From Catajapyx aquilonaris (taxonomy: Eukaryota), in assembly GCA_000934665.2 (NCBI GenBank), contig KZ538020.1, positions 186,001-228,853 of the forward strand: a stretch of 42,853 nucleotides of DNA. Reading direction: 5' to 3'. The position numbers and the translations under genes were made by a program. The notes under the pieces were generated by a model. It was not told the DNA's origin. It saw only the letters and a program-made list of their open reading frames with translations, and ran no database searches. Shown piece by piece: positions 2,386 to 31,434 of this stretch (the first letter of the stretch is position 1; every line of letters begins with the position of its first letter).

Positions 2386-2653
2386 TCTTATCTCCTGCCG
2401 GGGCGTTTTGCATGAGGTGCTCACTTGAGAGCGCCATGCGACAGCTTTTTTCTGCTCAATTACGTGGCGACCCCTACCGGACTACGCTGAACTAAGGTAG
2501 AAGAGAAGCCGCTACATGCGGTCCCAACATGGCCTATTTGTACCTATAAAGTTCAGCGTAGTCCTGTAGGGTCGCCACATAATAGAGCAGTGAAAGGTCT
2601 CATGGCGCTCTCAGGTGAGCATCTCATGAAAAACGCCCCGGCAGGCGATAAGA
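2386..2653. mobile_element. Foldback / MITE-like inverted-repeat element
   Basis: Imperfect arms of ~105 bp (tcttatctcctgccggggcgttt...ctacgctgaact versus agttcagcgtag...aaacgccccggcaggcgataaga). Superfamily unclear. Confidence 0.7.
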
Positions 2654-5303: not shown

Positions 5304-5450
5304 ACAGACCGTGGCCGAAACTTTGCTTCTAAAGTTATGGAAGGCATACACACCCTTCTTCGGGTGAAAGCTTTGCAAACGACAACTTATCATCCAGCAG
5401 CCAATGGTCTGGTAGAAAGATTTAACCGTACACTATGTGATATGCTAAGT
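5304..5450 (+). pseudogene. LTR-retrotransposon (Gypsy-like) integrase core fragment
   Basis: TDRGRNFASKVM...TTTYHPAANGLVERFNRTLCDML contains the second D and the E of the rve DDE motif. No flanking pol sequence. Confidence 0.88.
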
Positions 5451-7043: not shown

Positions 7044-7207
7044 GTTCTGCTGCCCACTCGGTCGCTGCCTTTCGAAGTAGAGCAGATTCTGGTGGCTCCA
7101 AATGGGACGCGTCTTCTGCTGGTTGGTTCCAAGGGGTTGATGGTTCTGCAGGTACCGCCCAGATGGTCCTTTCCGGCGCAGGAAGAGAAGGAGCAAATAT
7201 CATGCAG
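7044..7207 (+). CDS. Nup88: Nup88 internal coding exon A (first recognisable exon; upstream exon(s) not found)
   Basis: Polypyrimidine tttttttgcag acceptor and AG|gtaggt donor. Encodes VLLPTRSLPFEVEQILVAPNGTRLLLVGSKGLMVLQVPPRW, similar to recalled human NUP88 FEIYQVLLSPT..ALIGIKGLMVLELPKRW. Its phase-2 end fits the exon at 18232. Confidence 0.88.
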
Positions 7208-10200
7208 GTAGGTTAATTGCGTATGGATATTTTTGCTGTTAATCACGACTGTCTGTGTAAGACTACCCACAATGGAGTCCTTGTGGCTGCAACATCCCAA
7301 CCAGCAATGTAGGAGGGCCCCATCAGAATGCAAGAAGACGGAGAGATAGGAAAAATAATCTTGGCCCGAAGGTTAGCGAGAAAAGCAGTGTGAAGTAATG
7401 GCACGCTGGACTATAGCCTCGCAGCCGCAATAATATCGGGGCGGGTGAGGGGTAGGAATGGTGATGAATTCGTGAAAATTGTGTATTAGGCCAGCGGGGT
7501 TTGCCTGTGAGAGTAATGCGAAGAGTCCTCCACCACCACCACCACCTCTCTCCTCCTTCTCCACGGCTGAAGCCCCATCCTTCTTATTGCTGATTACCAG
7601 AGCATCAAGAGGAGGAAAGGAAGCGAGTTGGGCAAAGTTTGCCACTTTGCGACTCCGCCCTTCATGTACCCACTTTTGCTACGAGGTGGGAAAGAAGAAA
7701 CAAGCCAGATTACTCTGAAGATTTTCTCCTTGTAGTGGGAAGTAAGTCTGGGTGGAAATTGGAGCCAAATATCGAAGGAGAGAAGCTCAGCAGAATGGAC
7801 GTGGAAATCCTTGCGGGCGGTTCGCAGCCCTGCATCTTATTATTGTGGCCTCTTGGCGGGGCTCGCAGCTAATCCCGCCCGGCAAAAGATTACTGCCTTT
7901 TGAATAGTCTGCCAAGCCAGCGGGCTTATTCTTCGCACTCGTTCCTGGCACTCTGCTCAGGGGCCTGCTTCGCCCCTTAATGGCCCTGTCCCCACCTGCT
8001 AAGCCCCGCACTCAAACTTTGTACAAGCTAACGGCCCAAAAACCCACTCTTACTTCGCCAACGGAATCATCATCTTCTTCTATTCCCTTCCCCCCATCAG
8101 CACACCCCCCCTTTTGATTTTTCTGGGGCCGAAGCTTCCACCTGATGGACCCAAAAGCTCGACTCAACCTCATTGATGCCGGGCTCTCAACTGGCTTTTC
8201 CACGTGCCAATTGCCCCTCGTCACTAACTTCCTCTCCAACCCACTCTTTGCCCACTTTTTGCACCAGCTTTGCCGGAGCAGTTTGCCAACAAATACGTTG
8301 TAACTCTTCTTCTATCGTGCACTGGGAGCAATCGGTACTCTTTGGGACGATGGAATTTTTTTCTGGTTCGGGCCAGCCGCAGCAACAGTATAAAATAAAC
8401 CTTTATAGTGGAAGCCATTTTGACGTCACAACAGTGTGTTGCACAAGGTCGAATTTGTGTCGTCAATGGCAATAGAATGCACGATACCCAAATGTGGGGC
8501 TCATGAGTGTGGGGTACACAAGATTCTTATGACCGACGTTGGCAGACCAGACCATATCGCATAAATTGTGCAAGGTTTTCTTCAAAAAGAGTTTATTAAG
8601 TATTCAAATAAAACAGAGAACACAGAACATCTGGCGTACACAATCATCAGCACTCTGGCACGCTGAATGCTAAACCCCACTTAATAGAGTGACATACTCC
8701 GTGGATGGCCCCCTTGATTACATTCAGCACCTCTTTTCAATTAGGGAAATTGAATCGTCAGTATTTATACTGTGCTTTGCCCCTGCCTTTACACTGGTCT
8801 CTAGAATACGTTTCTTAATTTATTTTTTTAAGGGATGGGGCACAGAGATTAACCAGTTCGAATTGCGCCTTTGCACATGAAACGGAATCAGATCTTGAGC
8901 CCCGTAACAGTTAGGCCTTGGTGATTTGGACCAGGCAGATAAATACAAAATAAAATGTGATAAGAGAGGGGGGGGGGGGTGGAGGAGAAGGAAAGGCAGC
9001 AAGGATGATGGGCGAGAAGCTTTATCTGCGGAGCTAATGGCCGGTGGAAGGCGTCGGGCCAATCAGGACCCATCAATGGCAATGGTTGCGATCCAAGAAG
9101 GGCAAACGGCGGCAATTATTCGGGGCGCCGAGTGAGTCCGGAAGAGAAGAGAGTGATCCCCAACTCTTCCCTTCTGCCCTAAAGATGCGGGGATAAATGT
9201 TAATAGGCTATTGGGGAGGAGCATGGCCGGCGGGTGGTGGGTGGATAGGAGGGGGTAAAGGGAAGAAGGAATCATTGCCATTGCCCGCCCAGATCTGAAA
9301 TCCGCGCCCGCCTAATGATAGGCTGCTCCATTTGCCATCTCACTGCGGATCGCGCCCGTCTTTTGTTTCCTGAATAAAGCAGGGCCTGGTCCGCATCTCA
9401 TCCGATAGATGACAAGAATGGCGCCGGAGGACTAGCCCCTGCAGACAAATGCGTGCCAGCTAGGCGTCTCTAGCTTATTATGCAGTGTAAATATGGTAGA
9501 CCCTAGAATTAGGAGAAGAATGAAGGTCCCTTGAGCAGGGGGGAGGTCGCTGTGATTAAGCGGGGCATAGGGCAAAGTGACGGTGTCACAGGCTTGAGGA
9601 GCCCGGTGCAATCCCAGAAGCTCCCAACTGCCACTCGACCCACAGGCTCCTTCTGGCTGAAGATCCGGTTAAGGAGAGAAGAAATAACTGGAATCACAGG
9701 AATCAGCTACTTGCATTAATGGGAGACCAACATTTACTCTATTCAACATTTTGAAGTCGGAATCAAAAAATTGACACGGTTTACTTTCTCCGCTTTTCCA
9801 CAGAGACCAAACCTCCCCGAAACGAAACCACTCGTGCGGTTCCGACCCGAATTTTCCCTTTCTCGGTTTTCATTCTCTGTGTACATTTACATGCCTCAGA
9901 CTCGCTCCTGCTCCGTCAAGGGCCGTTGACTGCTTGGGCTACTTAGGTATCGAGGAGTCATCGAGTATAGAAGGGTGACCTTTCCCAATTGGAGGGGCCA
10001 AAACTTGCCAAGGGTGCAAATGGTCCGTGACGCCGAGCAAATTCACCCTGACCTTTTGGGGTTTTTTGGCGGACCAAAGGGGAAGAGTCCGCATGCCCTC
10101 GTTTGGCTGCCTCCTCCGCAAATGTCTTGGGGCAATCTTCTACTATACACAACCTTAGCGCAGGCATCACATTAGTTTCCTCAACTATTTGGTATTTATG

Positions 10201-17247: not shown

Positions 17248-18231
17248 CGTATGCCATTCTATGTTATGTTGTTTAAGAATGAGTTTACTGGCATTGTATT
17301 ATAGTACGAGTACCTTCATGTTGGCATACATGTAGCCCTAGTATTCTTGGTAGGCAGAGTTGCATTTTAAATTGTTTTCAGAGTGTGCCAGATACCCCTT
17401 TGCATTACTGATTAGTCACACATGCATGCGTGAAAAGGTTTGAAGATTTATATCGTACCTGCACGACAAAGCTAAGAACAAGTTCCAGGAATTTAAGGAC
17501 ACTAAGGGCCGGTTGCATCAACACAGGTCAAGGGTAACTCTCCGGCGAGGTGTTTGACAATGCCCAAAGAAAGATTTTCCATTATTTTGTGTAATACAAC
17601 CTGACATTAAAATTCTGCGTATGTGCCTTGTACTGTCTACTAGAAGAGTGAAAAGTTTATAACAGTTCTCTCAGCAAGAGTAGATAATGAACAGTGCCTT
17701 GAGGTTGCATGTTGTTTTGGTATAACGTGCGACCGCCGTGATCTCGTTGGGTCTCACTTGATCCACAAAGGTGCAAAAAAATTTTGGAGCCGGAATCAGT
17801 GGCAAAGCAAACAGGATCCTTTGTTACCACATATGTTACCCAAGTTTGGTAGATTGTGGTGTTTGGGGGGGGGGGGGGTTGCTGGGAAATTTTAAACTGA
17901 TTGTAATGCTACTTACGTATGCATTTTCATGGATTGCGAGTTAACTTGCGTAACTTGTTCCACCGTTGACGGCCTCTTTTATAAGGGAATATATAGTTGC
18001 GGGTTGCTTATCTTTGTTAGCGAGTGTTTACTAATTGCGAAACACTCCTTGAGTAGGATGCGGCATCTCTTCATCTGGAATCTAATGAAACTTATCTGTA
18101 GGCCTATACGTATAACGGAGTAGCCCCCGTTCGCAAAATCTATTCGCATTAGACAGGTTTCATATTCGCCGTCTTGGTAGGCTCCTTCGTGGTACATGGT
18201 CATTGAAACTTCTTTGGTTTGTGAATTTCAG

Positions 18232-18357
18232 GAGCTATTTAGTGGGCGATCGGATCCTGTCGTGTGGCCCTCGGGTGGAGGTGAAGAAAGCGGCGTGGCA
18301 CCCAGGCGGCCCACGAGACTCGCACCTGATCGTGCTGACCAACGACAATCAACTAAG
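18232..18357 (+). CDS. Nup88: Nup88 coding exon B
   Basis: ttcag acceptor and AG|gtcagt donor. Encodes (R)SYLVGDRILSCGPRVEVKKAAWHPGGPRDSHLIVLTNDNQLR, cf. NUP88 KHAAWYP...HVVLLTSDNVIR. Confidence 0.92.
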
Positions 18358-18415
18358 GTCAGTGCATCCCCGCACCGAAAAGGTGAGTACATTTTCACAC
18401 GGACTGTCATTACAG

Positions 18416-18584
18416 ATTGTACGAGGTGACCTCCGCAGAGAGCTGCGTCGCCGCACAGCAGACCATCCCTGTGGGCACCCTTCCGTCCTCCAGAATTGCA
18501 TATTTGGCCGCCTTGGGAGACACCGTTGTTTCCTTCGACTTCGCCCCGCCGATCACGTCGCAGACGGAACTTAAGTATTCTGTG
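18416..18584 (+). CDS. Nup88: Nup88 coding exon C
   Basis: Follows a 58-nt GT-AG intron. Encodes LYEVTS...AYLAALGDTVVSFDFAPP..., cf. NUP88 AYTASLGETAVAFDFGP. Donor GTG|gtatgt is phase 0. Confidence 0.9.
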
Positions 18585-18934
18585 GTATGTACTGAATCAT
18601 CTGTGGACCTGCTGCATATTCGCGCCATGAAGGACCGCGTGTCATTAGGCCCGCTTTGCGCCTGTGAGTTATACTGTGGGTGAGACAAGGGTGCGGTTGC
18701 TTGTAAGCCAGGATAAGCCGTTGTTCTCGGGAATGCATTTCATTGCCGTCATGTCGCGCTCATCAAATTATGACAACTGGCGACTGCATCTATATTGATT
18801 ACATCCTGAAATGTGCCCTGGGCAAAATAACTATCATGTTAATTTCGATTATTGTCTTGTACGATCTGTGGTTGTGTACTGGTTTTAGTGAATTGAAATG
18901 TAAGCATGGAGAATGAGCGTGTTTTTCGCTGTAG

Positions 18935-19062
18935 GTACCCTCCGTCGACGATGATGGCGCCAGTGTGCAGACTGAATACGTGCCTTCCACCTTGTGGCCA
19001 ATATTCCTACTGCGGGGGAACGGATACGTCTACATGCTTCTTACTTCACTGGCCAAGACAAG
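18935..19062 (+). CDS. Nup88: Nup88 coding exon D (not in the ORF track)
   Basis: tttttcgctgtag acceptor. Manual translation VPSVDDDGASVQTEYVPSTLWPIFLLRGNGYVYMLLTSLAKT, cf. NUP88 YPLYILYENGETF. Donor AG|gtacca is phase 2. Confidence 0.9.
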
Positions 19063-19178
19063 GTACCACAACATACTGAATGTCATTGTTTTGTATGATT
19101 AAACACCATGTGAAATGATGGGATTGGTAAAAACCATGCAAAACTGGGCAGTTTCCACCAAAATTGCTTATTTTTCAG

Positions 19179-19449
19179 GAGGCATTGTAAACCCAACATG
19201 ACTGGTCCCCTTCGAGTGTTCCCAGCAGCAGAGGACAACTATGGGGTGGATGCGTGTTCCTTGCTTTGCATGCAGACCCAGCCTCCAGTGCTGGCCATAG
19301 CCACTTGCTCTGGAACAATTCATCATGCCATTGCCATTGAGGCTAATGACTTCAGTGACTCTGGTGACGAAGGTGATGGTGATCTCAACGTAAATCAAGA
19401 AACATATGCCCTTCATAAGTCCTTGGCACGGACCAAACGGAGCATCAGC
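19179..19449 (+). CDS. Nup88: Nup88 coding exon E
   Basis: tttttcag acceptor. Encodes ...[41 protein letters not shown]..., close to the NUP88 motif [24 protein letters not shown]. Donor AGC|gtaagc. Confidence 0.95.
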
Positions 19450-19836
19450 GTAAGCTTTTTTCTTCTTTCTTTTTTCCCCCGATTGGATACAGCACTTGTT
19501 TGCTAAAGGCTACTCTTCATTTCAGCAAGTAGGGTATTTACATGTGATTAACAATTTCATGCAGTGGGAGTGATACTTATTTTGTACTGCATATGATTCT
19601 CATCTAAATTATGAGCAGTGGTGCTTCTGTTACATACGTAACTTGTGTTGAAAAATATTTATTACTGAGTTCTGTGGGCTACTCGGTTCTGAACCTACTT
19701 ATTTTGGAAATTTTTATGTGCATGTTCTCTTTATATGTAAAAAGTTTTACAATACCAAATTAGCTAAATGACCGTAAAACACCATAAGCCCAGGGATGGC
19801 GCGTAGGGGTCCCGGAGCCCCTCCAATGGTNNNNNN

Positions 19837-19867
<31 letters not shown>

Positions 19868-20067
19868 ATTCAGTGGCCCCACCGAGGATCGCGGAAAGGG
19901 AGGGAGAAGAGGATGAATTTTTATTATGGCCTTGAGCTATGGATTATGAATTTTTTGGAAAGTAAGTGGTCAAGAAAAAGAAAATTTTGCCTTTTTAACC
20001 ATCAATGATTCCAAAATTTTCGCGGCGGGCTATTGCTGTACAATCGACTTATTTATGATCGTTTCAA

Positions 20068-20427
20068 GGGGAGGTGTAGATGGCTGAGATGGTAACGTCT
20101 CGGCTTGCTGAGTGAATGGCCCCAGGTTCGATCCCCGCCTGGGGAACTTTCCTTTCACCTGTGTCGGGAGGGTCTTTGACCTGCACCTTGGAGGCGTCTG
20201 GCAACCTAACCTCCTGGGGAACAGCACATGACCACTTTACCGACATTGCACTTGCACCCCATGTTCCCTCCCCAAAAATCCCAATCCTGTCCCAATGTCC
20301 CTGTTTCCTTCCACCGGAGAATGAAGTTGAAAAATATATAGAAAACTGATGGTGGTGTGCCACCCCCCTATAGATCCCGTAAGGGACATCACGGGGTAAA
20401 ACAAAACAAACAAAATAATAATAATAA
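20068..20427 (+). mobile_element. tRNA-derived SINE, family 1, second copy (Nup88 intron)
   Basis: Colinear with 3924-4278 over the whole length: A/B boxes, body and catcacggggtaaa end, then an A-rich (AAT)n tail. Confidence 0.9.
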
Positions 20428-20483
20428 CATGATTATAAAGCTAGAGGCCGAAGTGAAAATGTTGGCACCATCGATGGTTTAAT

Positions 20484-20670
20484 CCCCAAGGGATGAAAAA
20501 CGCACCTAAAGTGACTTGTTCAAAATGACCCCTTTTTGGGGGGCAGAGGTCAACTCCTAAATGCCGAAAACTCACTGCTTTTCTTGAAATTCGGTGCATT
20601 GGTAGCCCCCAAAAAGGGGTAACTGGGTCATTTTGAGCAGGTCACTTTAGGTGCGTTTTTTATCCCTGGG
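20484..20670. mobile_element. Small MITE-like inverted-repeat element
   Basis: Arms of ~50 bp: ccccaagggatgaaaaacgcacctaaagtgacttgttcaaaatgaccc and gggtcattttgagcaggtcactttaggtgcgttttttatccctgggg. Confidence 0.65.
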
Positions 20671-21339
20671 GGGGGGGGGTGTTACCTAATTTCAAGAAAA
20701 TTGCCGAGACCTTGGAAAGTGTCCCTTGTGAGTTCGAGAGGTCATAACCTTTGACCTTGCATGGTTCCGCATAAACGGTTTCTTTAATAACTTCCCTGGC
20801 TATATTATTGCGCCAGGTTTCATTCAGCCACTCCATTATCAACACTTACAGTTCCCTTGTGAGATATGTATTCACCCTTACATTATTTAAAGAAGGTCTC
20901 CAATTACATTTTGCATTAATATTTTGGATTTTTCATTCATGAGATATTTGCCGTGAAACACAGGGTCCAATTAAAAAATAATAGTGCAGGAGACAGATTT
21001 GGCATCTGCGTTAGCAAAAATTAAAGACACAAACAGTCTGAGCGGGGGCCCTGCAAATGTCGGGGTCCAGAGAGGGAGGCCTCGCCTTTGACTCGGATGA
21101 CCAACCATTGCTCATAGTGCCACACCAGAATGACAATTCCACATTATGGAGAAGCTTACACAACTTTAAATAAATTTACTGTCATTTTCTGATAATAATA
21201 TGAACTTGTAGGGACACCTTATCATTTTAGCTGTTGGAAACTCGAAATTTATTTGTTAGTTCGTGTCGAAAATACACATTAATTTCGTAACAATCGTAGC
21301 CTACCTCTTTAAAAAAAGGTAGGCCTACACATGTTACAA

Positions 21340-21440
21340 ACCCAAGAGGACCCTGCTGCACGGGGCCTCTCGGGCACTGGGTCCGGGGCAGCCAGGGACA
21401 GAATTTGAACCCCGGACCTCCCGCTTGGCTGACTTTCATC
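21340..21440 (-). mobile_element. Degenerate tRNA-derived SINE head fragment
   Basis: The minus strand reads ...ccaagcgggaggtccggggttcaaattc..., a tRNA-like variable-loop/B-box segment. No tail or TSD identified. Confidence 0.4.
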
Positions 21441-21773
21441 TGTTCGAATATATTTTAAAAGTCCCTTCGCCGATGCAGTTTTGAGGACATTATTGACTGT
21501 GAAGAGTTGTCCGGGAGTCAGTGCGCCGTCCCACCAAAAAGTGGTTCCTGGTGGGCTTGGAGAGGTTGACACACCCGTGGTGCCAGTGCATTCGGTTCCG
21601 CCCTCGTATATCAATTCAACATAATTAGGCACCATTTTTCTTTTACCTTTGAAGCTATGCTGTTTCTTGTGACACTGCTCATAAATGGAATCAAAATCTA
21701 GAGGCTAATATTATAAGATTAATATTAATATTTGTGTGGGCTTGCAATGCAATGTTTTTTATTTCACTTGCAG

Positions 21774-22445
21774 AGTCAGTCATCCTGGCTTCCAAGTGAT
21801 GAGCTGGATGAAGACTTTCCTGGGACATGCTTGTATGTGTATGAGAGTGTGGAGCTTGAGCTAGGCCTGAAAGCTCGAGAAGATGATGACAACGTCAGTG
21901 ATGAGGGAGTCTCCAAGGGCAAAGCATCCAAAGAGCTGGGTTCCTATCCTGTGATGTTGTATCCTGATCCTTCCAACATTGGCCGTTACATGGCACTCCA
22001 TCCATGTGGCCTACATGCTGTGGCCACTCCTGTGGCATCCCACCTTCTGAAGTTGGCTGACATGCCAGATGAAGAAGGGCTGGAATGGCTGAGTGCCTTG
22101 GGATTGCCTGGAAGTGCTGTGGAACATCTGGTGTGCACACAGTTGTACCAGTCTCCACCCTTACCTGCACAGGGACTAGCAGTTACACTCCCACCTTGGG
22201 CTGCAATCATAATGATGCTGCCCTCTGGGCGAGCCATAAGCCTGCCCTTAGCTACAGCCCCGACTCTTGCCGCCCCACCACCACTAACCCAGTCAGATCT
22301 TCCCAGGGAGAATGGAGAGGAAGAGGAATTTGTTGCCCGGATTAATTCCATCCTGGCTCGTCCACATCGCCAGCCATTGCTGCAGGCACAATCATCTGAG
22401 CTCTCACGTCAGGCAAGCCTTCAGCTTCTGTGCCAGAGTACCCAG
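21774..22445 (+). CDS. Nup88: Nup88 coding exon F
   Basis: ttcacttgcag acceptor. LYVYESVELELGLK, VEHLVCT and LQLLCQSTQ match NUP88 LYVFECVELELALK, VEHILCT and LQLLSRATQ. Donor CAG|gtaaaa. Confidence 0.95.
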
Positions 22446-22712
22446 GTAAAATGATGTGTAGTGCACACTACCTACGAGTTGTGTTATTTTTATAAGGAGA
22501 AAGGAATTATGAATGGTACAAAACTGGCACAACATGAGTTTTTATTATTTTATGCTTAAAAACATGTGCAACACCTGCCACACAACTGTGTTGAAGTTGG
22601 TATCACTGACAATTGAGTAGCCTCCACATTTTCTCAACAATATTTCCCAGTGATATTTTATGTCGTTGTCTTTGCTCCAAACAAATAACAATATATCTTT
22701 CCTTATCCTATA

Positions 22713-23284
22713 CAGGGTGTAAATGAATTCAATCGACAAACTTGTTGGGGTAATAGAGGGAACCAAGACAAACATTTTTGACATAGGAAACCGTGTCCGG
22801 AAACGCCATCTAGAGGGGGTTCATAGACAAGGAACGGGTGCACTCAGACGCGTCACGCGAGAGGCGCTAATCGAGCGGACTGTTTTGTTGATAGATGACG
22901 CGCAGGTGTTGCCAGGTTATGGCGTATCGTGTCGTTGTAAGTAAACAACAACGCGATACGCCATAGTACCTGGCAACAACAAAACCGCTGTTGACTATCC
23001 GCGCGTCTGGCACGTCTCCTAGGAGGCGGACTTTAGTTGCTAGATGGCTCTGCTGTTGCCACGTTATGGCCATCGCATCGTTGGTTACTATCCGAGAGCC
23101 ATCTACCAACAAAACAATCCGCTCACCTAGCACCTCTCGCGTGACGCGTCTGAGCGCACCCGTTCCTTGTCTATGAACCCCCTCTAGATGGCGTTTCCGG
23201 ACACGGTTTCCTATGTCAAAAATGTTTGTCTTGGTCCCCTCTACCACACCTACAAGTTTGTCGATTGAATTCATTTACACCCTG
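22713..23284. mobile_element. Tc1/mariner-type MITE with long (~185 bp) TIRs in the Nup88 F-G intron
   Basis: TA|CAGGGTGTAAATGAATTCAATCGACAAAC...GTTTGTCGATTGAATTCATTTACACCCTG|TA. The mirrored ORFs at 22723(+) and 23274(-) reflect the palindrome. Internal hairpin at ~22908-22977. Confidence 0.9.
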
Positions 23285-23433
23285 TATAAGGGAAGTCCAT
23301 GAAAGTGTTTGAGAAATAAGGCGTATTGAGCCTATATGAAATATTCTGTGCAGATTGTTGACATATGAGAATAGTAAGATACTAGTGTTCTTCAGGTAAA
23401 AGATCTGCTGCTGAAATAGGCCCTTCTTTCTAG

Positions 23434-23900
23434 GTGCTGCGTGAAGAGCACATTCAGCGCCTGGACCATGTCCGAGACGAGATAGAACGCCGCTGCAAGC
23501 AGCAGAGCATGAGAAGGGAGCAGCAAGAGAATTTACTTGAAGCCCTCCAGATGGAGCGCCAGCAGCTGGGTGCCAATGCTGAAAGGCTTGCAGAGAAGTA
23601 CGAGGAGAGGAGGGACGCTCAGGAGCGCTTGATGGAACGCCTGGAGAGAGTCTTGGACTTGGCTCAGAGGCAGAGGCCAATGATCAGCGATGCAGAGAAG
23701 GCCATGAAAAAGGAAGTGGAGATGATTTTTGCAAATATGACCTCACTGCAAGTTTCAGTCGAGAGGATGATCAGAAAGCAAAAGGAAGAAGAGCAGGATG
23801 AGGGAAGGGAGATGGCGCAGTTGGAACAGACAAAGCGGAAGCTCAAGGGAAAGCTGGGTCCACAGCAAATTAACTGTCTTAAGGAGGTGCTACGCCTTGA
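23434..23900 (+). CDS. Nup88: Nup88 coding exon G (C-terminal coiled coil)
   Basis: ttctttctag acceptor. VLREEHI...AERLAEKYEE...PMISDAEKAMKKE matches NUP88 VFREQYI...AERLADKYEE...PVLSDSERDMKKE. Donor GA|gtaagt is phase 2. Confidence 0.95.
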
Positions 23901-24017
23901 GTAAGTATTAATCCATTTTAAACATTTCTGTGACGTTAGCCCCTTCAATTATCCAAAAGGATGGATCTATATGCAATCGAGGGATTCCCAACCTTATTGC
24001 CATACATCTATTGTTAA

Positions 24018-25081: not shown

Positions 25082-25308
25082 AATCAATGCAGCAACTAAG
25101 GGCCTCTTGCATGAATGCATAATAAGGTAAAATTTCAATGATGTGTTGAAATGACTTATGCACGATCAGGAGATTTTCCCCTTGATTTGTGTTCATGCAA
25201 CTGGGTTTCTAGTAATGCTTTAAAGATTTGATCGATTTGCATTTCTTACGGGCATGGCTTACGGGTTTATACGTGGTTTATACCAAAGAGAGAAGATATG
25301 GATTCAAG

Positions 25309-26571
25309 ATGGCCGCCGGGGCTGTGTCTGAATTGGCTGCTGTGCGGTTGCTGTGCGTGTCCGATTTCACTTGGATTGTCCAACTGTCCAAGCGGCATTG
25401 CGAACCACGAAGGCACGAAGCTGCACGTCTCATCACGTCTCCAGGCACATGGGCACAGAAGGTTGCTGCCTCGGTCAGGGAAAAGGTGCAGCACAGCATC
25501 CTGCTTCACAGGTTGGGTCCGGCTGTCTCAGGTAATGGTCATGTGCCTTACTACGCAGCACAACGGACTAATGCCCCCTTCTGTTTGGTAAGTGTCAGAA
25601 GCAAGATGAACGGACGAGACTGTGGCAAGAAGAAGCCTGCCCGCCCACATGAGCTTGTACTGGCACAATGCCGCGCCTATTTGGAGTCACGTGGACTGTG
25701 GAGAGACAACCTAGTGAGTGAGGTACCCCATGGATGGGAAAGGTACGGGGACTTAATTGTATTGCCCAAAGGCAGTTTTACAAGTCATGAATGGTGGGAT
25801 GATGACAATAACCAACTGTGGGAAGGGTTGGGAAAGGTGTTACGTGCGGACCGATTAGCTCTGCAGGGACCAATTCTGGCGTCACCATACCGTTCGCCAT
25901 CACTTCAGTTGGTGTTGGGTTCAAACCCATGGGCAACCAAGACAGAAAATGGTGTCACTTACACATGGGACGTTACACAGTGTATGTTCTCGCGTGGGAA
26001 TTTTATGGAGAAAAAGCGCATGGGTCAACTTAAATGTGAAACTGAAGTGGTTGTAGATGCTTTTGCAGGAATAGGATACTTTACTCTCCCTCTTTTGGTC
26101 GGTTCAAAAGCAAAACACTTGTTTGCATGCGAATGGAACCCAGCAGCATTGGATGCCCTCAAGCGAAACTTGAGTTTGAATGGAATCAATACATCTCGGG
26201 TTACCATTTGCGCTGGAGATTGCCGTGTTGTCTGCCCCCAGAATGTAGCTGACAGGGTTGTCTTAGGACTGATTCCATCCTCGAAGTGTGGGTGGGAAGT
26301 GGCATGCAGGGCTTTGAAAAGTGAAACAGGAGGGATAATACACCTTCATGGTGTGGACCGCAATGGTGGAGAAGTTGAGCGGCAGAGCTGGGGTGAGCTC
26401 ATGGCTAGTGAAATCAAGAAATTGTTGGACAAAATGTGGGCTTGCCCAGCAAGAGTTACCGTGAAAGGAGTGTACTCAGTCAAGTCTTATGCACCTAAAC
26501 TGCACCATTATGTGGCTGACTTAAGTTGCACACCAGTTTGTGATAGTTATGAAGATGTGCTTGTGCAGTGA
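25309..26571 (+). CDS. TRMT12: tRNA wybutosine-synthesizing protein 2 (TYW2/TRMT12), intronless, 420 aa
   Basis: Long open ORF whose first in-frame ATG (25309) lies in caagATGGCC context. Motifs WERYGDL, ENGVTYTWDVTQCMFSRGN..EK.RM, SAM-binding VVVDAFAGIGYFTLP, CEWNP, ADRVVLGLIPSS, GGIIHLH and VKSYAP are typical of the TYW2 branch of the Trm5/TYW2 (Met-10+) family. Confidence 0.93.
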   Translation: MAAGAVSELAAVRLLCVSDFTWIVQLSKRHCEPRRHEAARLITSPGTWAQKVAASVREKVQHSILLHRLGPAVSGNGHVPYYAAQRTNAPFCLVSVRSKMNGRDCGKKKPARPHELVLAQCRAYLESRGLWRDNLVSEVPHGWERYGDLIVLPKGSFTSHEWWDDDNNQLWEGLGKVLRADRLALQGPILASPYRSPSLQLVLGSNPWATKTENGVTYTWDVTQCMFSRGNFMEKKRMGQLKCETEVVVDAFAGIGYFTLPLLVGSKAKHLFACEWNPAALDALKRNLSLNGINTSRVTICAGDCRVVCPQNVADRVVLGLIPSSKCGWEVACRALKSETGGIIHLHGVDRNGGEVERQSWGELMASEIKKLLDKMWACPARVTVKGVYSVKSYAPKLHHYVADLSCTPVCDSYEDVLVQ

Positions 26572-27736
26572 GGGTAGTTTGAACTGTGTTTGGTGTAAAG
26601 ATTTGGATTGCCAACTGAAGTTTATGTGGGGAGAACTGTTCAGTGCCTTCCTGTTTGCTTTTTTTTTTTGTTGTAGTTCATGTTGTTAGGACACTTGACA
26701 TTGTGTCAGTTCATAAAATATAGTACATATGAAATTATTTTTGCATTGCTTTTTCCCCTTTGTGAAATGGATGAGGAATATTGCAGCGTTGCTTCTTCAA
26801 GCTGGGGTTGGGTAATCTTTGCCGCTTTGCATTAATATGTTAAGATGAACTCTATGTGCCTCAGGGTTTGGCTCATCTGTATTAGTTGCATCATGTTCAA
26901 GTTTGGCATAGCTATGCACACAAATGGAGAGCCTGCTAAATTACTTTAAAATGACATGTCAAGCAATGAAGCAATACTACACTTGTAGGTGAGACCACAA
27001 CACAGGTGTGACTGGAGATGAGACTCCACAAGGTTTTTATCACTGCTGATTTTATGAATGAATTCTGGAACATGTGGTATGTTTATAGTTGGTGGTGTTT
27101 GAGTCACCTTTCATGTGAAAGCAGCCTAGGGAAGTGCTTGCCTGGTGCTAACTGTAAGTGCATATGTCAGCAGTGAGTTAAAATATCTTCGGCGCATTTT
27201 TATTGCTGTCCCATTTTGGTAGCCCCTAAGTAAGATTGTAGCATAGCAATGGACAATGAACAATGAATTTTTCCAACATGTTGTTCTTGTTACATTTTTA
27301 AAAAAATTCGTCCTAACTCAAGTTCTGCTGCAGGTAGAGCTTCCAAATTTTGAGCACAGATCCCCACCGTCGCGTCGTGAAGTGCATTCCTACTATTTAC
27401 AGCTAAACTGAATTCCTCTTCAAAACGCTGCAAAAAATTACCACAAAAAAATTCTTTATTATTTTTTTGCTCAACTATTCGGAATGCGGTTTCTTCTTCA
27501 AAGGGCCGAATTTACAACATGATGGTGTGGATATATGTTAAAATCCTTATAGTTCTATCCACTACAGGATTGGAGGTATGATTTTTTTTTCTCTGCAATT
27601 TTTTCTGTCATTACTTCATTTGTTCATGATGTCATTACCTAGCACCATCAAGTCTTGTTTACCAACTCGCCATATCATTTTATGTAGTTATTGTTGGCCA
27701 AATGTTGCGCTACTGCAGTATATAGAGTACTTATTA

Positions 27737-28176
27737 CAGTTGAATCCGGATCCAACAGTCTCAGCTGTAACAGACTTTCGGTTATAAAAGCCTGTCCCAG
27801 CATGATTCCATAAGGCCTGTGTATTTTACTCCTGATGTAACAGACTCATTTTCACCTCACCTTGGGTATAACAGACCATTATTTCTGGGCCCCTTGGTGG
27901 GAAAATATAGTTTTTCAGGTATAAAATGTGCAAAAAGGAGCTGGCAGAAGAAAATTTCGGATATTTTGGTCCTGCATAATTTTCGGGTGAGCTCATATTG
28001 CATTTTTGATGGATTTCATTCATTGGTATGCAGTTAGTGCGTATTACAGGCATATGGAAAGCATAAATAATCTGTGTTTTTCGTTGAAAAAGTGACGATT
28101 AGGATATAACAGATCTCGGTTATAACAGACTTTTTTTCTGTGGTTTCTTGACGTCTGTTATATCCGGATTCAACTG
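27737..28176. mobile_element. Tc1/mariner (pogo/Tigger-like) MITE
   Basis: TA|CAGTTGAATCCGGAT...ATCCGGATTCAACTG|TA with subterminal ttataacagac-type repeats. Confidence 0.82.
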
Positions 28177-28185
28177 TACTATTAA

Positions 28186-28735
28186 CCCCTTCACTACCTG
28201 CTATATTGCCATCGCCTCGATTTTCGCTTACACATATTATGAAGATAAGGACAAGATATTTTACAAAATAATATAATATAATATCATACCCCATTGAAGC
28301 CGTTCTGGCTTTTTAGGGGGGAGATTTGTTTTTTTTTTGGCTGGAACTCTTGTAAACTTTATTTCGCTTTTTGGGACGGGATAGGGATGGAAGGAAGCGG
28401 CTGTGGCCTATTAACTAGGAAACAACTCTGGTATTCACCTGGAGGAACCGTGGGAAACCACAGAAAACCACGGTCAGAGTTGCCGGCACCGGGATTCGAA
28501 CCTCGAACCCAGGACCTCCCGATTAGCAGGCGGACTCCATATCCACTACACCAACCTGCTTCAGTATATTTTACAAAATAATACATAATAACAGCTATAC
28601 TTACGCATTCATGCTCTGTATGTGATGGAAACAGTTTTCGTTGTCTGGAAGTTCCTAAATAAATTTTCAATAAGATTGCCGTAAAAACTCGAAATTCAGG
28701 TATTACTGCCAACTATTAAGCTGATTTAATTTTCG
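28186..28735 (+). mobile_element. piggyBac-like non-autonomous element (partial), interrupted by a SINE
   Basis: TTAA|CCCCTTCACTACC left end. Segments on both sides of the SINE are homologous to ~31050-31240. Right end not located. Confidence 0.55.
28274..28565 (-). mobile_element. tRNA-derived SINE, family 2
   Basis: Minus-strand A box TGGTGTAGTGG, B box GGTTCGAATCCC (preceded by a duplicated GGTTCGA) and (ATATT)n tail. The body ggttttctgtggtttccc...ccaggtgaatacc...ggccacagccgcttccttcc resembles recalled insect SINE central domains. An 18-bp TSD atattttacaaaataata lies at 28256-28273 and 28566-28583. Confidence 0.88.
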
Positions 28736-29485
28736 CTCCTGAAAATGCAGAATCCAATCGAAAAAGACCGCTGAAAATTCACCAGTTTACATTAACATGT
28801 GAAAAATTAAACATTACAGTTAAATCAGTATCTAAATTGTGCGTAAATATTTCATGGCAATAAACTCGTACAAATTTTATACAGTATAAATTCAATACGC
28901 TTAATATTGAAGTTCCTAATTTCAGAAAACACACTTATATGGAGTGGCTCATGGAAAATTAATATTTTCAGAAAGGAGACTTCATGAGCAGTAAATTGGA
29001 AATTGCTTGAGTAAAACTTAAATCAGTAATTGGTGGAGGACTGGAGGTCTTATGTGCACCTACCTTGTTTCAGTACTTTCATTTAACCGCCACGGAGGTC
29101 TTACTACCCTTTTTATCACTGCAGGGAATGTTTATGTTCTTATTTTACCTATACTTAATAACAATGAGCTTCCATTATCCACAGGTTATTGGTTGCAAGC
29201 CTTCTGAACAGGTAAAGTGAAACCTGTGAATAATAACCTACTGACGAACATAGGTGTTGTAACAAACATACTTACCTGTTATAAGTTTAAATTACAAATT
29301 CTGCACATTAAGGTATGGTGAGCCGGCAGGCACGCTCCCCTGCCGGCTTCACCTCACGGGCAAATGTCCCCTGACTCGCATCGGCTTCCAAACCTATCCT
29401 GTCCCCTGCTCTTTTTCCCTCCAAAAACCTTCAAGGCCAGAGTCGACCAACTCTGGCTCGACCTCCACAAGGTCCGCGCCTTGGG

Positions 29486-29493
29486 TATAAAAA
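29486..29493 (+). promoter_or_regulatory. TATA box in the loop of a 14-bp inverted repeat
   Basis: gggTATAAAAAg flanked by ggtccgcgccttgg (29471-29484) and ccaaggcgcgggcc (29500-29513). A pyrimidine-rich Inr-like ttcacttcagc lies ~30 nt downstream. Confidence 0.55.
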
Positions 29494-29621
29494 GCAGCAC
29501 CAAGGCGCGGGCCACTTCACTTCAGCATCAGCTGCAGCCTTCAACGAGGAACACCCGACTCCGAGCTCCACAGCAGACACGGCCTACGAGCTCAGCAGCA
29601 GCAGCGGCGCATCAAACAACC

Positions 29622-29665
29622 GGTCCTTTTCAGGACCAACATAACAAACGGCCCTTTTCAGGGCC
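29622..29665 (+). other. Two tandem histone-3'-UTR-type stem-loops
   Basis: GGTCCT-TTTC-AGGACC (29622-29637) and GGCCCT-TTTC-AGGGCC (29650-29665), each with A/C-rich 5' flanks and an AACAT 3' flank. Both fit the 6-bp stem, 4-nt loop SLBP consensus. Confidence 0.8.
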
Positions 29666-29760
29666 AACATGAGCATCTGTAAAGGGTCACCAAAAAGGCA
29701 TCAACAAAAACAGTGAACAAAAAATTAGATTGTTATGACAGTACGGTACTGCACTGCACT

Positions 29761-29889
29761 ATATTGGATTTTTAAATTTTATTACAGTATTTCATTTCAT
29801 TATATATTGGATTTTTAAATTTTATTACAGTATTTCATTTCATTATATATTGGATTTTTAAATTTTATTACAGTATTTCATTTCATTAT
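29761..29889. repeat. Tandem repeat, 3 x 43 bp, AT-rich
   Basis: Unit atattggatttttaaattttattacagtatttcatttcattat starts at 29761, 29804 and 29847. Confidence 0.92.
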
Positions 29890-29890
29890 G

Positions 29891-30266
29891 CAGGGTGGTC
29901 CAACTTTTTTGTCCGAACAGCTATTGACAAATTCGGCCTAAGCTGCTTATGTTGTAGTGCGTTACCTGGCAACCCTGTCCGGCGGGCCAATTCAAACATC
30001 AGCCCATGGAGACTGCTTCCATTGTTGCCACTGTTTACAAATTGAGTGAGTGACGCGGATGACCCAGCGACGGATCTCTTCTGCCTGCGCACTCACTCAT
30101 TCGATTTGTAAACAGTGGCAACAATGGAAGCGCTATCCATGGGCTGATGTTTGAATTGGCCCGCCGGACAGGGTTGCCAGGGAACGGGCTACAATATAAG
30201 CAGCTTAGGCCGAATTTGTCAATAGCTGCGTGATAGCTGTTCGGACAAAAAAGTTGGACCACCCTG
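29891..30266. mobile_element. Palindromic Tc1/mariner-type MITE
   Basis: CAGGGTGGTCCAACTTTTTTGTCCGAACAGCT...AGCTGTTCGGACAAAAAAGTTGGACCACCCTG|TA with arms of ~165 bp. The left flank is TG rather than TA. Confidence 0.88.
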
Positions 30267-30983
30267 TATATTGCATCTTTTCAATCCATGGGTAATGAAC
30301 CCATGGATAATGAGGTCTCACTGTGTCTACTTGCCCTTGTAACACCATATTCTTCGCATAGAGAGTAGTGAGCCAGTGTAGAGAGAAGGTGACCATCAGG
30401 CCTGGGTGTATGATGCATTTGAGAGTCAGCTAGGAGAGGTACAGTGCAGTAATTTGTGTCATTATCCCTTTCCTTAAAAGAGTTAAAACATATTTCATGT
30501 TTTAATAAATTTCAACCCTGTCCTTCCCAATTTATTTAATTGTATTATTTATTCCATATCGTATGTTAAGGCCACAGTGGCTTTTTTTCTTGGGGGAGGG
30601 GAGGGGGTGCCATTTGTAACAAAATTATGTACAGTACACAGCCTACTATCTGTTTGTTTAATATAGAGCCCTGTGTTTGACTCTAAACAACTCCCAGGCA
30701 AATTATCAAAAAAAAATCATGGTATGTATCGTTAGAAAGCTTGTTTAAATCTATGTTACATAATTATATGATAGTTGTTTTCCTATCATCAGTCAGTCTC
30801 TAATTTTTTATCTGGTGTAGGTGAATTAGATGGGCCGTTATGAACATATGCCAGTATTGATGTTAGTACTGTACAGTATTTAGCATAGACCTTACTAGCA
30901 AGGTCTATGGTACTATGTAGAAAATGACAGTTTTAAAATGCCATAGCCCCAAAAATTGAAACTTAAAGGATATTTATAATTTA

Positions 30984-31434
30984 CCCCTTCGCTACCAGCT
31001 AGGCCAAAAACGCACAGATTTTCCCTTACGCCTATAGGGCTATACTCTGAAGGTAATAAGAACAAGATACTGTACTATTTTACAAATAATAACAGCTATA
31101 TTTACCCATTTATGGAAAACACTATATGAATGTCTTGCGAACAATTTTACTCCTGCATAAGTCCCTAAATTAATTTCCAAAAAGATCGCCTTAAAAACTC
31201 GAAATTAGAGTTAATACCGGCCAACTGTTAGGCTGATTTAATTATGAAATACGCAAAAATATACGGAACAACAACCTTGAGACGAATTTTCTGGAACTAT
31301 AGTTATACTTTGCGAGAAATAAATTAATACTTATTCGCGGATTTTTGACACTTCGCGAGAAGGAAATCAATTTGGGAGTTTTCTGAAGTGTCAAAAATCC
31401 GCGAATAAGTATTAATTTATTTCTCGCGAGGGGG
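30984..31434 (+). mobile_element. piggyBac-like non-autonomous element, related to the 28186 copy
   Basis: TTTA|CCCCTTCGC ... GCGAGGGGG|TTAA termini. Internal homology to 28241-28273 plus 28584-28735. Confidence 0.55.
31312..31427. repeat. Perfect 43-bp inverted repeat with 30-nt spacer
   Basis: gcgagaaataaattaatacttattcgcggatttttgacacttc (31312-31354) and its exact reverse complement (31385-31427). Confidence 0.92.

What the first reader, a model, noticed from the sequence alone, without database searches (positions are those of the whole stretch)
29314..29690. Histone-less TATA unit ending in two tandem histone stem-loops: candidate SLBP-binding ncRNA or a mobile-element terminal repeat using histone-type 3' processing
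Seen: a ~360-bp GC-rich island in AT-rich DNA. It carries a 5' hairpin (29317-29353), a TATA box at 29486, an Inr-like sequence near 29516-29526 and ~100 nt without an ATG. Two 28-nt repeats follow, each with a canonical 16-nt histone stem-loop, and the two differ by a compensatory pair (T-A versus C-G at stem position 3). A purine-rich AAAGGG lies ~15 nt after the second loop. There is no AATAAA and no histone ORF in any frame. Established: this stem-loop binds SLBP and, with U7 snRNP, forms the non-polyadenylated ends of replication-dependent histone mRNAs; it is rare outside histone genes. Inference: the unit may yield a ~120-150-nt poly(A)-minus RNA with two SLBP sites (a decoy or S-phase-coupled RNA). 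Alternatively it is a solo LTR (it ends ...AACA) of an element that replaced the poly(A) signal with histone-type processing.
Basis: partly seen in the sequence, partly recalled or inferred. Interest (0 to 1): 0.82.

Follow-up and report, generated by a model that had tools for sequence, protein, structure and literature searches.

The report
Repeated gene-less histone stem-loop cassette
A short stretch with its own promoter and two histone-type RNA end signals, but no gene between them, is one copy of a repeated and probably mobile element, which suggests that mobile DNA can borrow the pathway cells use to finish histone messages.

Summary
At 29622-29637 and 29650-29665 lie two canonical histone 3' stem-loops (0 expected by chance; Rfam Histone3 30.9 and 18.6 bits, below the gathering score of 34). 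They follow a TATA box (29486), Inr-like motifs and an ATG-free leader. There is no histone ORF and no poly(A) signal.

New here: the unit is not single-copy. In genome contigs of the same organism, the bins covering it carry about 25-120 times the word depth of the single-copy flanks, and single contigs reach about 45 times. The open frame across the unit has no homologue, and an indel in the commonest copies would shift it.

A metagenome scan for tandem histone stem-loops returned 120 loci. None lies behind a histone ORF. In 94, the loops follow the C-terminal end of a Tc1/mariner-type transposase. One family is a short ORF-less element with inverted ends (a MITE) that keeps the loops. One locus is a compact TATA-to-ORF-to-two-loops gene.

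Best reading (0.5): a mobile-element-derived expression cassette with histone-type 3' processing, element class unresolved. Rivals are a multicopy small-RNA gene and a histone-array orphon. No RNA data and no source genome were available.

The parts
29336..29694 (+). Extent of the repeated unit as inferred from genome contigs. The left edge could be as early as 29316.
   Evidence: A unique contig matches 28987-29365 exactly and stops there. With 31-letter words this places the first base shared with other copies at 29336 (inference). A diverged copy aligns from 29338. Another contig stays alike up to 29694 and then runs on unlike. Bins 29139-29305 and 30308-30474 are at single-copy depth.
29316..29353 (+). 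GC-rich 5' hairpin: 13-bp stem with one bulge and an 8-nt loop. Its left arm may be private to this copy.
   Evidence: -16.5 kcal/mol, z -6.07, 0 of 200 shuffles fold as well. One search puts the shared part from about 29336, which lies in the loop.
29436..29457 (.). 8-bp-arm palindrome upstream of the promoter
   Evidence: -8.0 kcal/mol, z -3.98.
29471..29513 (.). 14-nt inverted repeat bracketing the TATA box. Its left arm carries a GGTCCG box.
   Evidence: I14, 93% complementary.: -17.3 kcal/mol, z -5.65.
29486..29493 (+). TATA box (TATAAAAA)
   Evidence: All other copies laid have C instead of G at 29485, and two contigs have one more A after 29488.
29512..29523 (+). Two Inr-like motifs with the A at +28 and +33 from the TATA box. 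This copy has a 6-nt duplication here.
   Evidence: 6 nt are left out at 29522 in 3-4 high-depth contigs.
29514..29621 (+). Predicted leader, about 105 nt, with no ATG
   Evidence: no ATG from 29486 to 29668; three-frame translation.
29622..29637 (+). Histone-type stem-loop 1 (6-bp stem, 4-nt loop)
29650..29665 (+). Histone-type stem-loop 2
   Evidence: (30.9 bits).
29678..29686 (+). Purine-rich tract 13 nt after loop 2, in the place of a histone downstream element
   Evidence: The same offset (9-14 nt) holds in 98 of 120 transposon-borne tandem loops.
29328..29332 (.). AGGCA, left copy of a candidate 5-bp target-site duplication
   Evidence: It coincides within 3 nt with the contig-inferred edge. 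My estimate of the chance of such a match near both edges is about 0.06, so it is only suggestive.
29696..29700 (.). AGGCA, right copy of the candidate duplication

Best explanation
The unit is one copy of a moderately repeated family (tens of copies) of short, ORF-less elements derived from a mobile element. It carries a complete histone-gene-style expression cassette.

What the cassette contains:
- a Pol II TATA/Inr promoter;
- an ATG-free leader of about 105 nt;
- a duplicated histone 3'-end signal: two SLBP-type stem-loops followed by a purine-rich downstream element.

How it would work (inferred). Transcription starts near 29514-29519. The U7 snRNP/SLBP machinery cleaves 4-5 nt after loop 2, or less likely after loop 1. 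The product is a capped, non-polyadenylated RNA of about 125-155 nt with an internal and a terminal stem-loop, whose level is coupled to S phase.

Origin (inferred). In full-size relatives the cassette would bracket the element's own ORF. This family would then be a non-autonomous deletion derivative (my odds about 0.3) or a terminal repeat such as a solo LTR (about 0.2).

Shown here: the motifs, the repeat status, the absence of coding potential, and the existence elsewhere of transposons that end their gene in the same tandem module. Inferred: transcription, processing, mobility and element class.
For: **Motifs.**

**Repeat status.** The contigs come from three DNA runs of one sample of the same organism, and they match the window exactly over 26300-27341, 28987-29365 and 30245-30686.
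- Single-copy word depth is 19, 26.6 and 37.7 in the three runs.
- The three bins over 29306-29806 have 962-3684.
- The neighbouring bins 29139-29305 and 30308-30474 have 17.6-85.8.
- Single contigs across 29378-29411 have depth 879.5 and 1544.4, about 41-46 times single copy.
- Other copies differ from this one by small indels, and one variant skips 29484-29610.

**Not coding.**
- The frame 29322-29669 has no homologue among 5.8 billion protein clusters and no Pfam family.
- The extra A after 29488 in the high-depth contigs would shift it.

**Not in a histone cluster.** 0 of 103 window ORFs carry a histone domain.

- 0 of 142 ORFs tested are histones.
- 94 of 120 loci have a Tc1/mariner-type transposase tail ending 200 nt or less before loop 1.
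- Full-length relatives are 356-357 aa with PF13358 and PF13551.
- One locus has a Merlin-type tail (PF12762, E 2.6e-06).
- One family of about 940 bp is an ORF-less MITE with about 200-bp inverted ends that still carries the module.
- L069 is a compact TATA-to-184-aa-ORF-to-two-loops unit.
- 109 of 119 loci that could be scored have a run of 7 or more purines in 8, mostly 9-14 nt after loop 2, as the window does.

**Insertion mark.** A 5-bp direct repeat, AGGCA, sits within 3 nt of both contig-inferred edges.
Against: - No second copy's sequence could be read, so the boundaries, the element class and collinearity of the commonest copies across 29530-29620 are not shown.
- The laying tool itself warns that summed contig depth is not a copy number. 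I use it only to separate repeated from single-copy DNA.
- Few contigs at high depth (8-10 at 29485, against 38-72 for neighbouring repeats) means very homogeneous copies. That fits a tandem array as well as a recent burst.
- There are no terminal inverted repeats beyond 9 nt with one mismatch, and no unambiguous target duplication: 44 candidates of 4 bp or more, about what chance gives.
- No transposase, gag, pol or second copy lies in the window.
- The unit shares only the loops with the transposon families, so that support is by analogy.
- Both loops score below Rfam's gathering score.
- There is no evidence of transcription.
Confidence: 0.5

Rival explanations
1. Solo LTR. This is a sub-case of the mobile reading, listed apart because the first reader named it. 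U3 would carry the TATA box, R would run from the start site through the stem-loops, and a short U5 would hold the downstream element. The histone-type signal would replace the poly(A) signal of a retrotransposon.
For: - A promoter followed about 150 nt later by a 3'-end signal, with no ORF, inside about 380 bp is the ordinary layout of an LTR (established knowledge).
- The termini TGGTGA...TCACCA at 29316 and 29692 are TG...CA with a 6-nt inverted repeat.
- The unit is present in tens of copies.
Against: - The 4-6 bp beside those termini do not match (AGGTA versus AAAAG), and no TG...CA pair has a duplication.
- The part shared with other copies starts at about 29336, not 29316.
- There is no second LTR and no gag, pol or integrase nearby. 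The only integrase-like hit is weak (rve_3, E 2.8e-04) and lies 24 kb away.
- Histone-type processing is recalled to work best close to the promoter. That would cut transcripts in the 5' LTR rather than the 3' LTR (recalled, not tested).
Confidence: 0.2
2. A host multicopy gene family for a small non-coding RNA with two SLBP sites (a decoy, or an S-phase-coupled RNA). It would be kept homogeneous by concerted evolution, and the window copy would be a dispersed member.
For: - The transcription unit is complete, intact and compact.
- The two loops differ by a compensatory pair.
- Copies are very homogeneous: one contig reaches about 45 times single-copy depth.
- The predicted RNA folds better than shuffles (z -3.34).
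Against: - No RNA run holds it, so expression is untested.
- One variant lacks the TATA box and leader (joint 29483 to 29611, depth 422-494, anchor only 23 nt). A promoterless copy of that kind is more typical of decaying repeats than of a working gene family.
- No relative was found in other genomes.
- In the only other tandem-loop units found, the module belongs to transposon or ORF-bearing genes.
Confidence: 0.18
3. A histone-gene remnant. The promoter and 3' end of a replication-dependent histone gene (possibly H4-like) would have been joined by loss of the coding region. The unit would be either an orphon of the tandem histone repeat or a defective unit within it.
For: - Histone-type signals lie at both ends.
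- The leader of about 105 nt equals a typical 5' plus 3' UTR (established knowledge).
- A GGTCCG box just upstream of the TATA box recalls H4 promoters. This is recalled; a search for it found no paper.
- The apparent copy number is of the order of invertebrate histone repeats (recalled).
Against: - The unit is not single-copy.
- In the rows the tool printed (it kept the best supported), the only changes inside the unit in high-depth contigs are small.
- None of the 120 tandem-loop loci found elsewhere follows a histone ORF.
- No histone gene lies in 42.8 kb.
- The flanks are single-copy right up to the unit.
Confidence: 0.1

Closest known systems
Histone mRNA 3' stem-loop with downstream element (Rfam RF00032), processed by SLBP and U7 snRNP
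   Same: Both loops have the 6-bp stem, the 4-nt U-rich loop and A/C-rich flanks of the family consensus. A purine run lies 13 nt downstream. No poly(A) signal follows.
   Different: No histone ORF lies upstream. The loop is duplicated in tandem. Scores of 30.9 and 18.6 bits are below the curated 34. Pairing with the species' U7 could not be tested.
Tc1/mariner-type DNA transposons whose transposase gene ends in two tandem histone stem-loops, with their MITE derivatives (found here in metagenome contigs L001-L120; none of my eight paper searches, listed a paper reporting such a link)
   Same: - The module is the same: loop, a spacer of 5-30 nt (set by the search pattern), loop, then a purine run 9-14 nt on.
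- 4 of 10 loci tested reach the Rfam gathering score; the others score 24-30 bits, like the window.
- They are repeated elements.
- One family has lost the ORF but keeps the module.
   Different: - There is no sequence similarity outside the loops.
- Those elements have long inverted ends and a transposase remnant. The window unit has neither.
- The window unit also carries a TATA promoter about 130 nt before loop 1.
L069: compact intronless gene with a TATA box, a 184-aa ORF with a P2RX7_C domain, and two stem-loops
   Same: The layout is the same (TATA, short leader, two loops, purine run). The loop sequence is the same as the window's loop 2, and an AAGGGT core follows the loops in both.
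   Different: L069 has an ORF (PF20478, E 2e-06) and the window unit has none. They are unrelated outside the loops. L069's copy number is unknown.
Solo LTRs of LTR retrotransposons
   Same: An ORF-less unit of about 380 bp with a promoter and then a 3'-end signal. TG...CA ends. Many copies.
   Different: No target duplication, no partner LTR and no internal region. The 3' signal is histone-type instead of poly(A).
Histone orphons (dispersed solitary copies of tandem histone genes; recalled from the sea-urchin literature, no paper read here)
   Same: Histone regulatory signals away from a histone cluster.
   Different: Orphons carry the coding region and are solitary. This unit lacks it and is repeated tens of times.

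Membership tests
Histone 3' UTR stem-loop (Rfam RF00032) | 16-nt hairpin with a 6-bp stem, a 4-nt loop and conserved flanks | tested here: met
   both loops align to model positions 1-26 with no non-canonical pair.
Histone 3' UTR stem-loop (Rfam RF00032) | Score at or above the curated gathering score (34 bits) | tested here: not met
   30.9 and 18.6 bits; no hit at gathering level. Transposon-borne loops scored 24-37.5 bits, and 4 of 10 reached 34.
Replication-dependent histone gene | Histone-fold or linker-histone ORF directly upstream of the loop | tested here: not met
   no ATG between the TATA box and the loops, and 0 of 103 window ORFs have a histone domain.
Replication-dependent histone gene | Downstream element complementary to the 5' end of the species' U7 snRNA | not testable with these tools
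   No genome is held and no U7 gene lies in the window. Only a purine run at the right distance is seen.
LTR retrotransposon (solo LTR) | TG...CA termini with a short inverted repeat | tested here: met
   TGGTGA at 29316 and TCACCA ending at 29692. But the contig-inferred left edge is 29336.
LTR retrotransposon (solo LTR) | 4-6 bp target-site duplication at those termini | tested here: not met
LTR retrotransposon (solo LTR) | Copies occur in pairs around gag/pol with a primer-binding site and a polypurine tract | not testable with these tools
   No genome is held. Within the window there is no second copy and no gag, pol or integrase near the unit.
MITE / non-autonomous DNA transposon | Terminal inverted repeats of 10 bp or more | tested here: not met
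   the best is 9 nt with one mismatch (29316-29324 and 29684-29692).
MITE / non-autonomous DNA transposon | Target-site duplication at the ends | tested here: inconclusive
   AGGCA flanks 29333-29695, next to the contig-inferred edges. But 44 candidates of 4 bp or more exist in the grid searched, about the chance number.
Dispersed repeat family (any mobile element) | Many copies with single-copy flanks | tested here: met
   bins over the unit are 25-120 times the single-copy depth and adjoining bins are at single-copy depth. Depth is only a rough proxy.
Histone orphon | Solitary copy collinear with a histone gene of the same genome | tested here: not met
   The unit is repeated, not solitary. 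Collinearity with a histone gene could not be tested without the genome.

The most novel reading that the evidence does not exclude
Mobile elements in several animal lineages have taken over the SLBP/U7 histone-mRNA pathway. A tandem pair of histone stem-loops plus a downstream element replaces the poly(A) signal, so the element's RNA is made, stabilised and destroyed in step with DNA replication. The window's family would be an ORF-less offshoot whose tens of copies produce small capped RNAs of about 125-155 nt carrying two SLBP sites. Such RNAs could compete with histone mRNAs for SLBP.
Probability: 0.3. Interest if true: 0.85.

Novelty: new variant of a known kind. Interest (0 to 1): 0.66.

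Why it matters

This work found three kinds of non-histone unit ending in canonical histone 3' signals:
- a repeated, gene-less unit in the window;
- whole transposon lineages;
- a few non-histone ORFs.

If these signals are used, the pathway has other clients. Mobile DNA would then have a ready-made way to restrict expression to S phase. On my reasoning, that is when a cut-and-paste element would gain most from moving. Many copies of an RNA carrying two SLBP sites could also affect histone supply.

All of this can be tested directly with poly(A)-minus RNA sequencing, 3' RACE and SLBP pull-down.

Tried and rejected
**Searches that gave nothing**
- The source genome is not held, so copy number, ends and neighbours of other copies could not be read.
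- The look-up of sequencing runs listed 5 rows from 2 studies, with no RNA holder listed. This says nothing about expression.
- Earlier findings: nothing near the place, nothing by sequence, and nothing relevant by words.
- There is no second copy in the window.
- The tandem-loop pattern gave 0 hits in viral contigs. A window-type pattern gave 0 hits in genome contigs.
- The records behind five long metagenome loci are not held, so no full-length transposon was read.

**Coding reading rejected**
- The frame 29322-29669 (102 codons from the ATG at 29365) has no Pfam family and no homologue.
- It runs across the TATA box and both loops, and the extra A after 29488 in the high-depth contigs would shift it.

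**Relation to the transposon families rejected**
- Their ORF tails do not match the window (best E 0.077).
- DNA similarity is confined to 29614-29668.

**Ends**
- The inverted-repeat search found only 9 nt.
I count none as proof.

**Element types set aside using recalled rules, by eye only**
- Helitron: no A|TC start and no CTRR|T end.
- piggyBac, Harbinger and hAT: their termini or duplications are not seen.
- SINE: no A or B box, and the T-runs in the loops would stop Pol III.
- Spliced-leader or snRNA gene: no Sm site.

**Literature**
- Eight searches listed no paper whose title or abstract start links histone stem-loops to transposons. I opened none of the papers they listed.
- A term search in one preprint found none of 'transpos', 'tandem' or 'non-histone'.
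- Subscription journals and supplements are outside that library.
- One search call failed on a badly formed term.
Full report
**1. The observation**

- Two 16-nt hairpins with a 6-bp stem and a TTTC loop lie at 29622-29637 and 29650-29665. The degenerate histone-loop pattern matches only these two places in 42,853 bases, and none of 100 shuffles gave a match.
- In a local run, Rfam's Histone3 model scores 30.9 bits (E 6.2e-07, 29645-29689) and 18.6 bits (E 0.026, 29617-29642). Both are under the curated 34 bits, so the whole-window run at gathering level is empty.
- The loops sit in two 28-nt direct repeats that are 89% alike. Two of their three differences form the compensatory T-A/C-G pair.
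- Upstream lie TATAAAAA at 29486 and two YYANWYY motifs at 29512 and 29517. No ATG occurs up to 29668.
- A 7-of-8 purine run starts 13 nt after loop 2.
- No AATAAA or ATTAAA lies on the + strand between 28864 and 30504.
- GC is 0.578 against 0.37-0.40 around it.
- Three palindromes fold far better than shuffles: the 5' hairpin (z -6.1), an 8-bp-arm palindrome, and 14-nt arms that bracket the TATA box (z -5.7).

**2. Setting**

The window is animal DNA.
- Exons of a Nup88 gene run from about 6.9 to 23.9 kb, and a single-exon TYW2 (tRNA wybutosine) gene lies at 25216-26571.
- The best TYW2 relatives are only 37-51% identical and come from vertebrates, bivalves, echinoderms and arthropods. I name no closer taxon.
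- The unit lies 3 kb downstream of TYW2 in AT-rich DNA full of repeats. These include a 43-bp unit repeated three times (29760-29889) and a palindromic MITE-like element (29884-30273).
- None of 103 ORFs scanned has a histone domain. No transposase, gag or pol lies near the unit.

**3. It is a repeat**

Five runs from two studies hold part of the unit, and none is RNA. Contigs of four were laid on 26300-31300.

Three DNA runs of one sample match the window without a single difference over 26300-27341, 28987-29365 and 30245-30686. They are therefore the same organism.

| Measure | Run X1 | Run X2 | Run X3 |
|---|---|---|---|
| Single-copy word depth | 19 | 26.6 | 37.7 |
| Bin 29306-29472 | 1629 | 3194 | 3684 |
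| Bin 29473-29639 | 962 | 1388 | 2310 |
| Bin 29640-29806 | 1213 | 1741 | 2438 |

- The adjoining bins 29139-29305 and 30308-30474 read 17.6-85.8.
- The last bin also includes part of the 43-bp array.
- Single contigs across 29378-29411 have depth 879.5 and 1544.4, about 41-46 times the single-copy value.
- The tool warns that summed depth is not a copy number. I take from it only that the unit is present in tens of copies while its flanks are unique.
- Other copies differ from this one by G>C at 29485 (all 8-10 contigs there), a 1-nt loss at 29378, an added T at 29411, an added A at 29488 and the loss of 6 nt at 29522.
- One variant of depth 422-494 skips 29484-29610, with only a 23-nt anchor.

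**4. Ends**

- The unique contig ending at 29365 implies, for 31-letter words, that the first base shared with other copies is 29336 (inference).
- A diverged copy aligns over 29338-29524 only.
- A contig from the other study stays alike over 29542-29694 and then continues unlike for 168 nt. It could be another copy or a divergent allele.
- The shared part therefore begins in the loop of the 5' hairpin, unless this copy has a private change there.
- The best inverted repeat between the two ends is 9 nt with one mismatch (TGGTGAGCC / GGGTCACCA).
- A grid search for flanking direct repeats gave 44 candidates of 4 bp or more, about the chance number. Among them, AGGCA brackets 29333-29695, within 3 nt of both contig-inferred edges. 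I estimate the chance of that at about 0.06.

The element class is therefore open.

**5. Not coding**

- A frame is open from 29322 to 29669, with an ATG at 29365.
- It has no Pfam family and no homologue among 5.8 billion protein clusters.
- It runs across the TATA box and both loops, and the extra A after 29488 in the high-depth contigs would shift it.

**6. Tandem histone loops elsewhere**

None resembles the window outside the loops.

- The loci fall into two large similarity groups of 63 and 48, plus a few small ones.
- No histone domain was found in 68 ORFs of 110 aa or more. None was found in 74 ORFs of 55-109 aa ending 200 nt or less before loop 1.
- In 94 of 120 loci a Tc1/mariner-type transposase tail ends on the same strand 200 nt or less before loop 1, with the stop codon as close as 3-5 nt before loop 1 in the best-kept copies (L062, L002). 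Six more loci keep its last motif.
- Pfam supports the assignment through DDE_3 in L090 (E 5.4e-05, below its cut-off).
- Full-length relatives of 356-357 aa carry PF13358 and PF13551 (41 proteins at E 1e-05 or better).
- L014 has a Merlin-type tail (PF12762, E 2.6e-06, 28 bits against a cut-off of 27).
- L069 is a compact unit: TATAAAAG, an ATG about 95 nt on, a 184-aa ORF with a P2RX7_C domain (E 2e-06), the stop codon 8 nt before loop 1, two loops of the window's loop-2 sequence, and then an AAGGGT-containing run.
- L008/L098 and L019 have unknown ORFs in the same position.
- One family of about 940 bp is a MITE. It has about 200-bp inverted ends and only the last 40 or so codons of the transposase, followed by the two loops and a purine run.
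- Loop 1's 5' arm was not fixed by my pattern. It pairs at all six positions in 66 of 120 loci and at five positions in 33.
- 109 of 119 loci that could be scored have a run of 7 or more purines in 8 after loop 2; in 98 of them it starts 9-14 nt after the loop.
- Ten loci run through Rfam gave Histone3 hits of 24-37.5 bits, and 4 of the 10 reached the gathering score.

This sample is biased.

**7. Reading**

The closest analogues are therefore repeated elements and compact non-histone genes that use a duplicated histone 3' signal. At least one such element has lost its ORF and kept the signal.

The window unit most likely belongs to this kind. It would be a mobile-element-derived cassette whose promoter and terminator are of the histone type, now without an ORF. 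I give this 0.5, split into about 0.3 for a non-autonomous deletion derivative and about 0.2 for a terminal repeat such as a solo LTR.

The mechanism is inferred from established knowledge of histone pre-mRNA processing:
- Pol II starts near 29514-29519.
- SLBP binds the loops.
- U7 snRNP pairs with the purine tract.
- Cleavage 4-5 nt after loop 2 leaves a non-polyadenylated RNA of about 150 nt with two loops.

**8. Rivals**

- **Host small-RNA gene family kept homogeneous in an array (0.18).** The few high-depth contigs fit this. The promoterless variant and the absence of any relative argue against it.
- **Histone-array remnant (0.1).** The signals fit, as does a GGTCCG box that recalls H4 promoters (recalled; one search found no paper). 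Against it: the printed rows show only small changes inside the unit in the high-depth contigs, and tandem loops were never behind histone ORFs in my sample.
- **Chance** is excluded.

**9. Literature**

Eight searches listed no paper whose title or abstract start links histone stem-loops with transposons, and I opened none of the listed papers. The one preprint I searched inside, on the evolution of the pathway, has no occurrence of 'transpos', 'tandem' or 'non-histone' (passages only). The library lacks most subscription journals, so this is not proof of novelty.

The statements on orphons, on H4 promoter boxes and on the distance dependence of histone 3' processing are recalled, not read here.

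**10. Verdict**

- Function is untested.
- The side finding seems to me at least as interesting as the window unit itself: transposase genes that end in tandem histone stem-loops.

Noticed in passing
L001-L120 (metagenome contigs), e.g. L002:699-1080, L062:437-1067: A diverse lineage of Tc1/mariner-type transposons (DDE_3; full-length relatives 356-357 aa). Its transposase stop codon is followed (3-5 nt on in L062 and L002) by two tandem histone stem-loops and a purine-rich run. This holds in 94 of 120 loci by tblastn and in 6 more by motif. None of my eight paper searches listed a paper reporting this.
   Followed up: partly
Family of about 48 loci, e.g. L010, L003, L009 (consensus about 940 bp): A MITE with about 200-bp terminal inverted repeats. 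It keeps only the last 40 or so codons of the transposase plus the two stem-loops and the downstream purine run. It is an ORF-less repeat that still carries the histone-type module.
   Followed up: partly
L014:1064-1367 (- strand): A Merlin/IS1595-type transposase tail (PF12762, E 2.6e-06) also ends just before tandem histone stem-loops. The module therefore occurs in a second transposon superfamily.
   Followed up: no
L069:210-960; also L008/L098 and L019: Compact non-histone units ending in two histone stem-loops. L069 has a TATA box, a 184-aa ORF with a P2RX7_C domain and the same loop sequence as the window's loop 2. L008/L098 (307 aa) and L019 (266 aa, proline-rich with Cys/His motifs) have ORFs with no Pfam family.
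   Followed up: partly
window 29884-30273: A palindromic MITE-like element: 41-nt outer and 136-nt inner inverted arms, 93-95% complementary. Its summed word depth is 11,000-71,000 against 19-38 for single-copy DNA, so it belongs to a very abundant family.
   Followed up: no
window 29760-29889: Three perfect copies of a 43-bp AT-rich unit, directly between the stem-loop unit and the MITE.
   Followed up: no
window 28256-28731 and 31067-31243: Two copies (75-92% alike, about 2.5 kb apart) of another repeat. Part of it reaches word depths of 120,000-240,000, the most abundant repeat in the stretch laid.
   Followed up: no
window 6948-7208 and 18116-23904 (+); 25216-26571 (+): Exons of a Nup88 nucleoporin gene, followed by a single-exon TYW2/TRMT12 tRNA-wybutosine gene. 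The best TYW2 relatives are only 37-51% identical, so the organism has no close relative among the named hits.
   Followed up: partly
window 19831-19866: A run of six N followed by 30 G. This is probably an assembly gap and artefact inside the Nup88 gene.
   Followed up: no
window 5229-5507 (+): A weak integrase-core match (rve_3, E 2.8e-04, below its cut-off). It may be a decayed retroelement fragment in a Nup88 intron, 24 kb from the finding.
   Followed up: no
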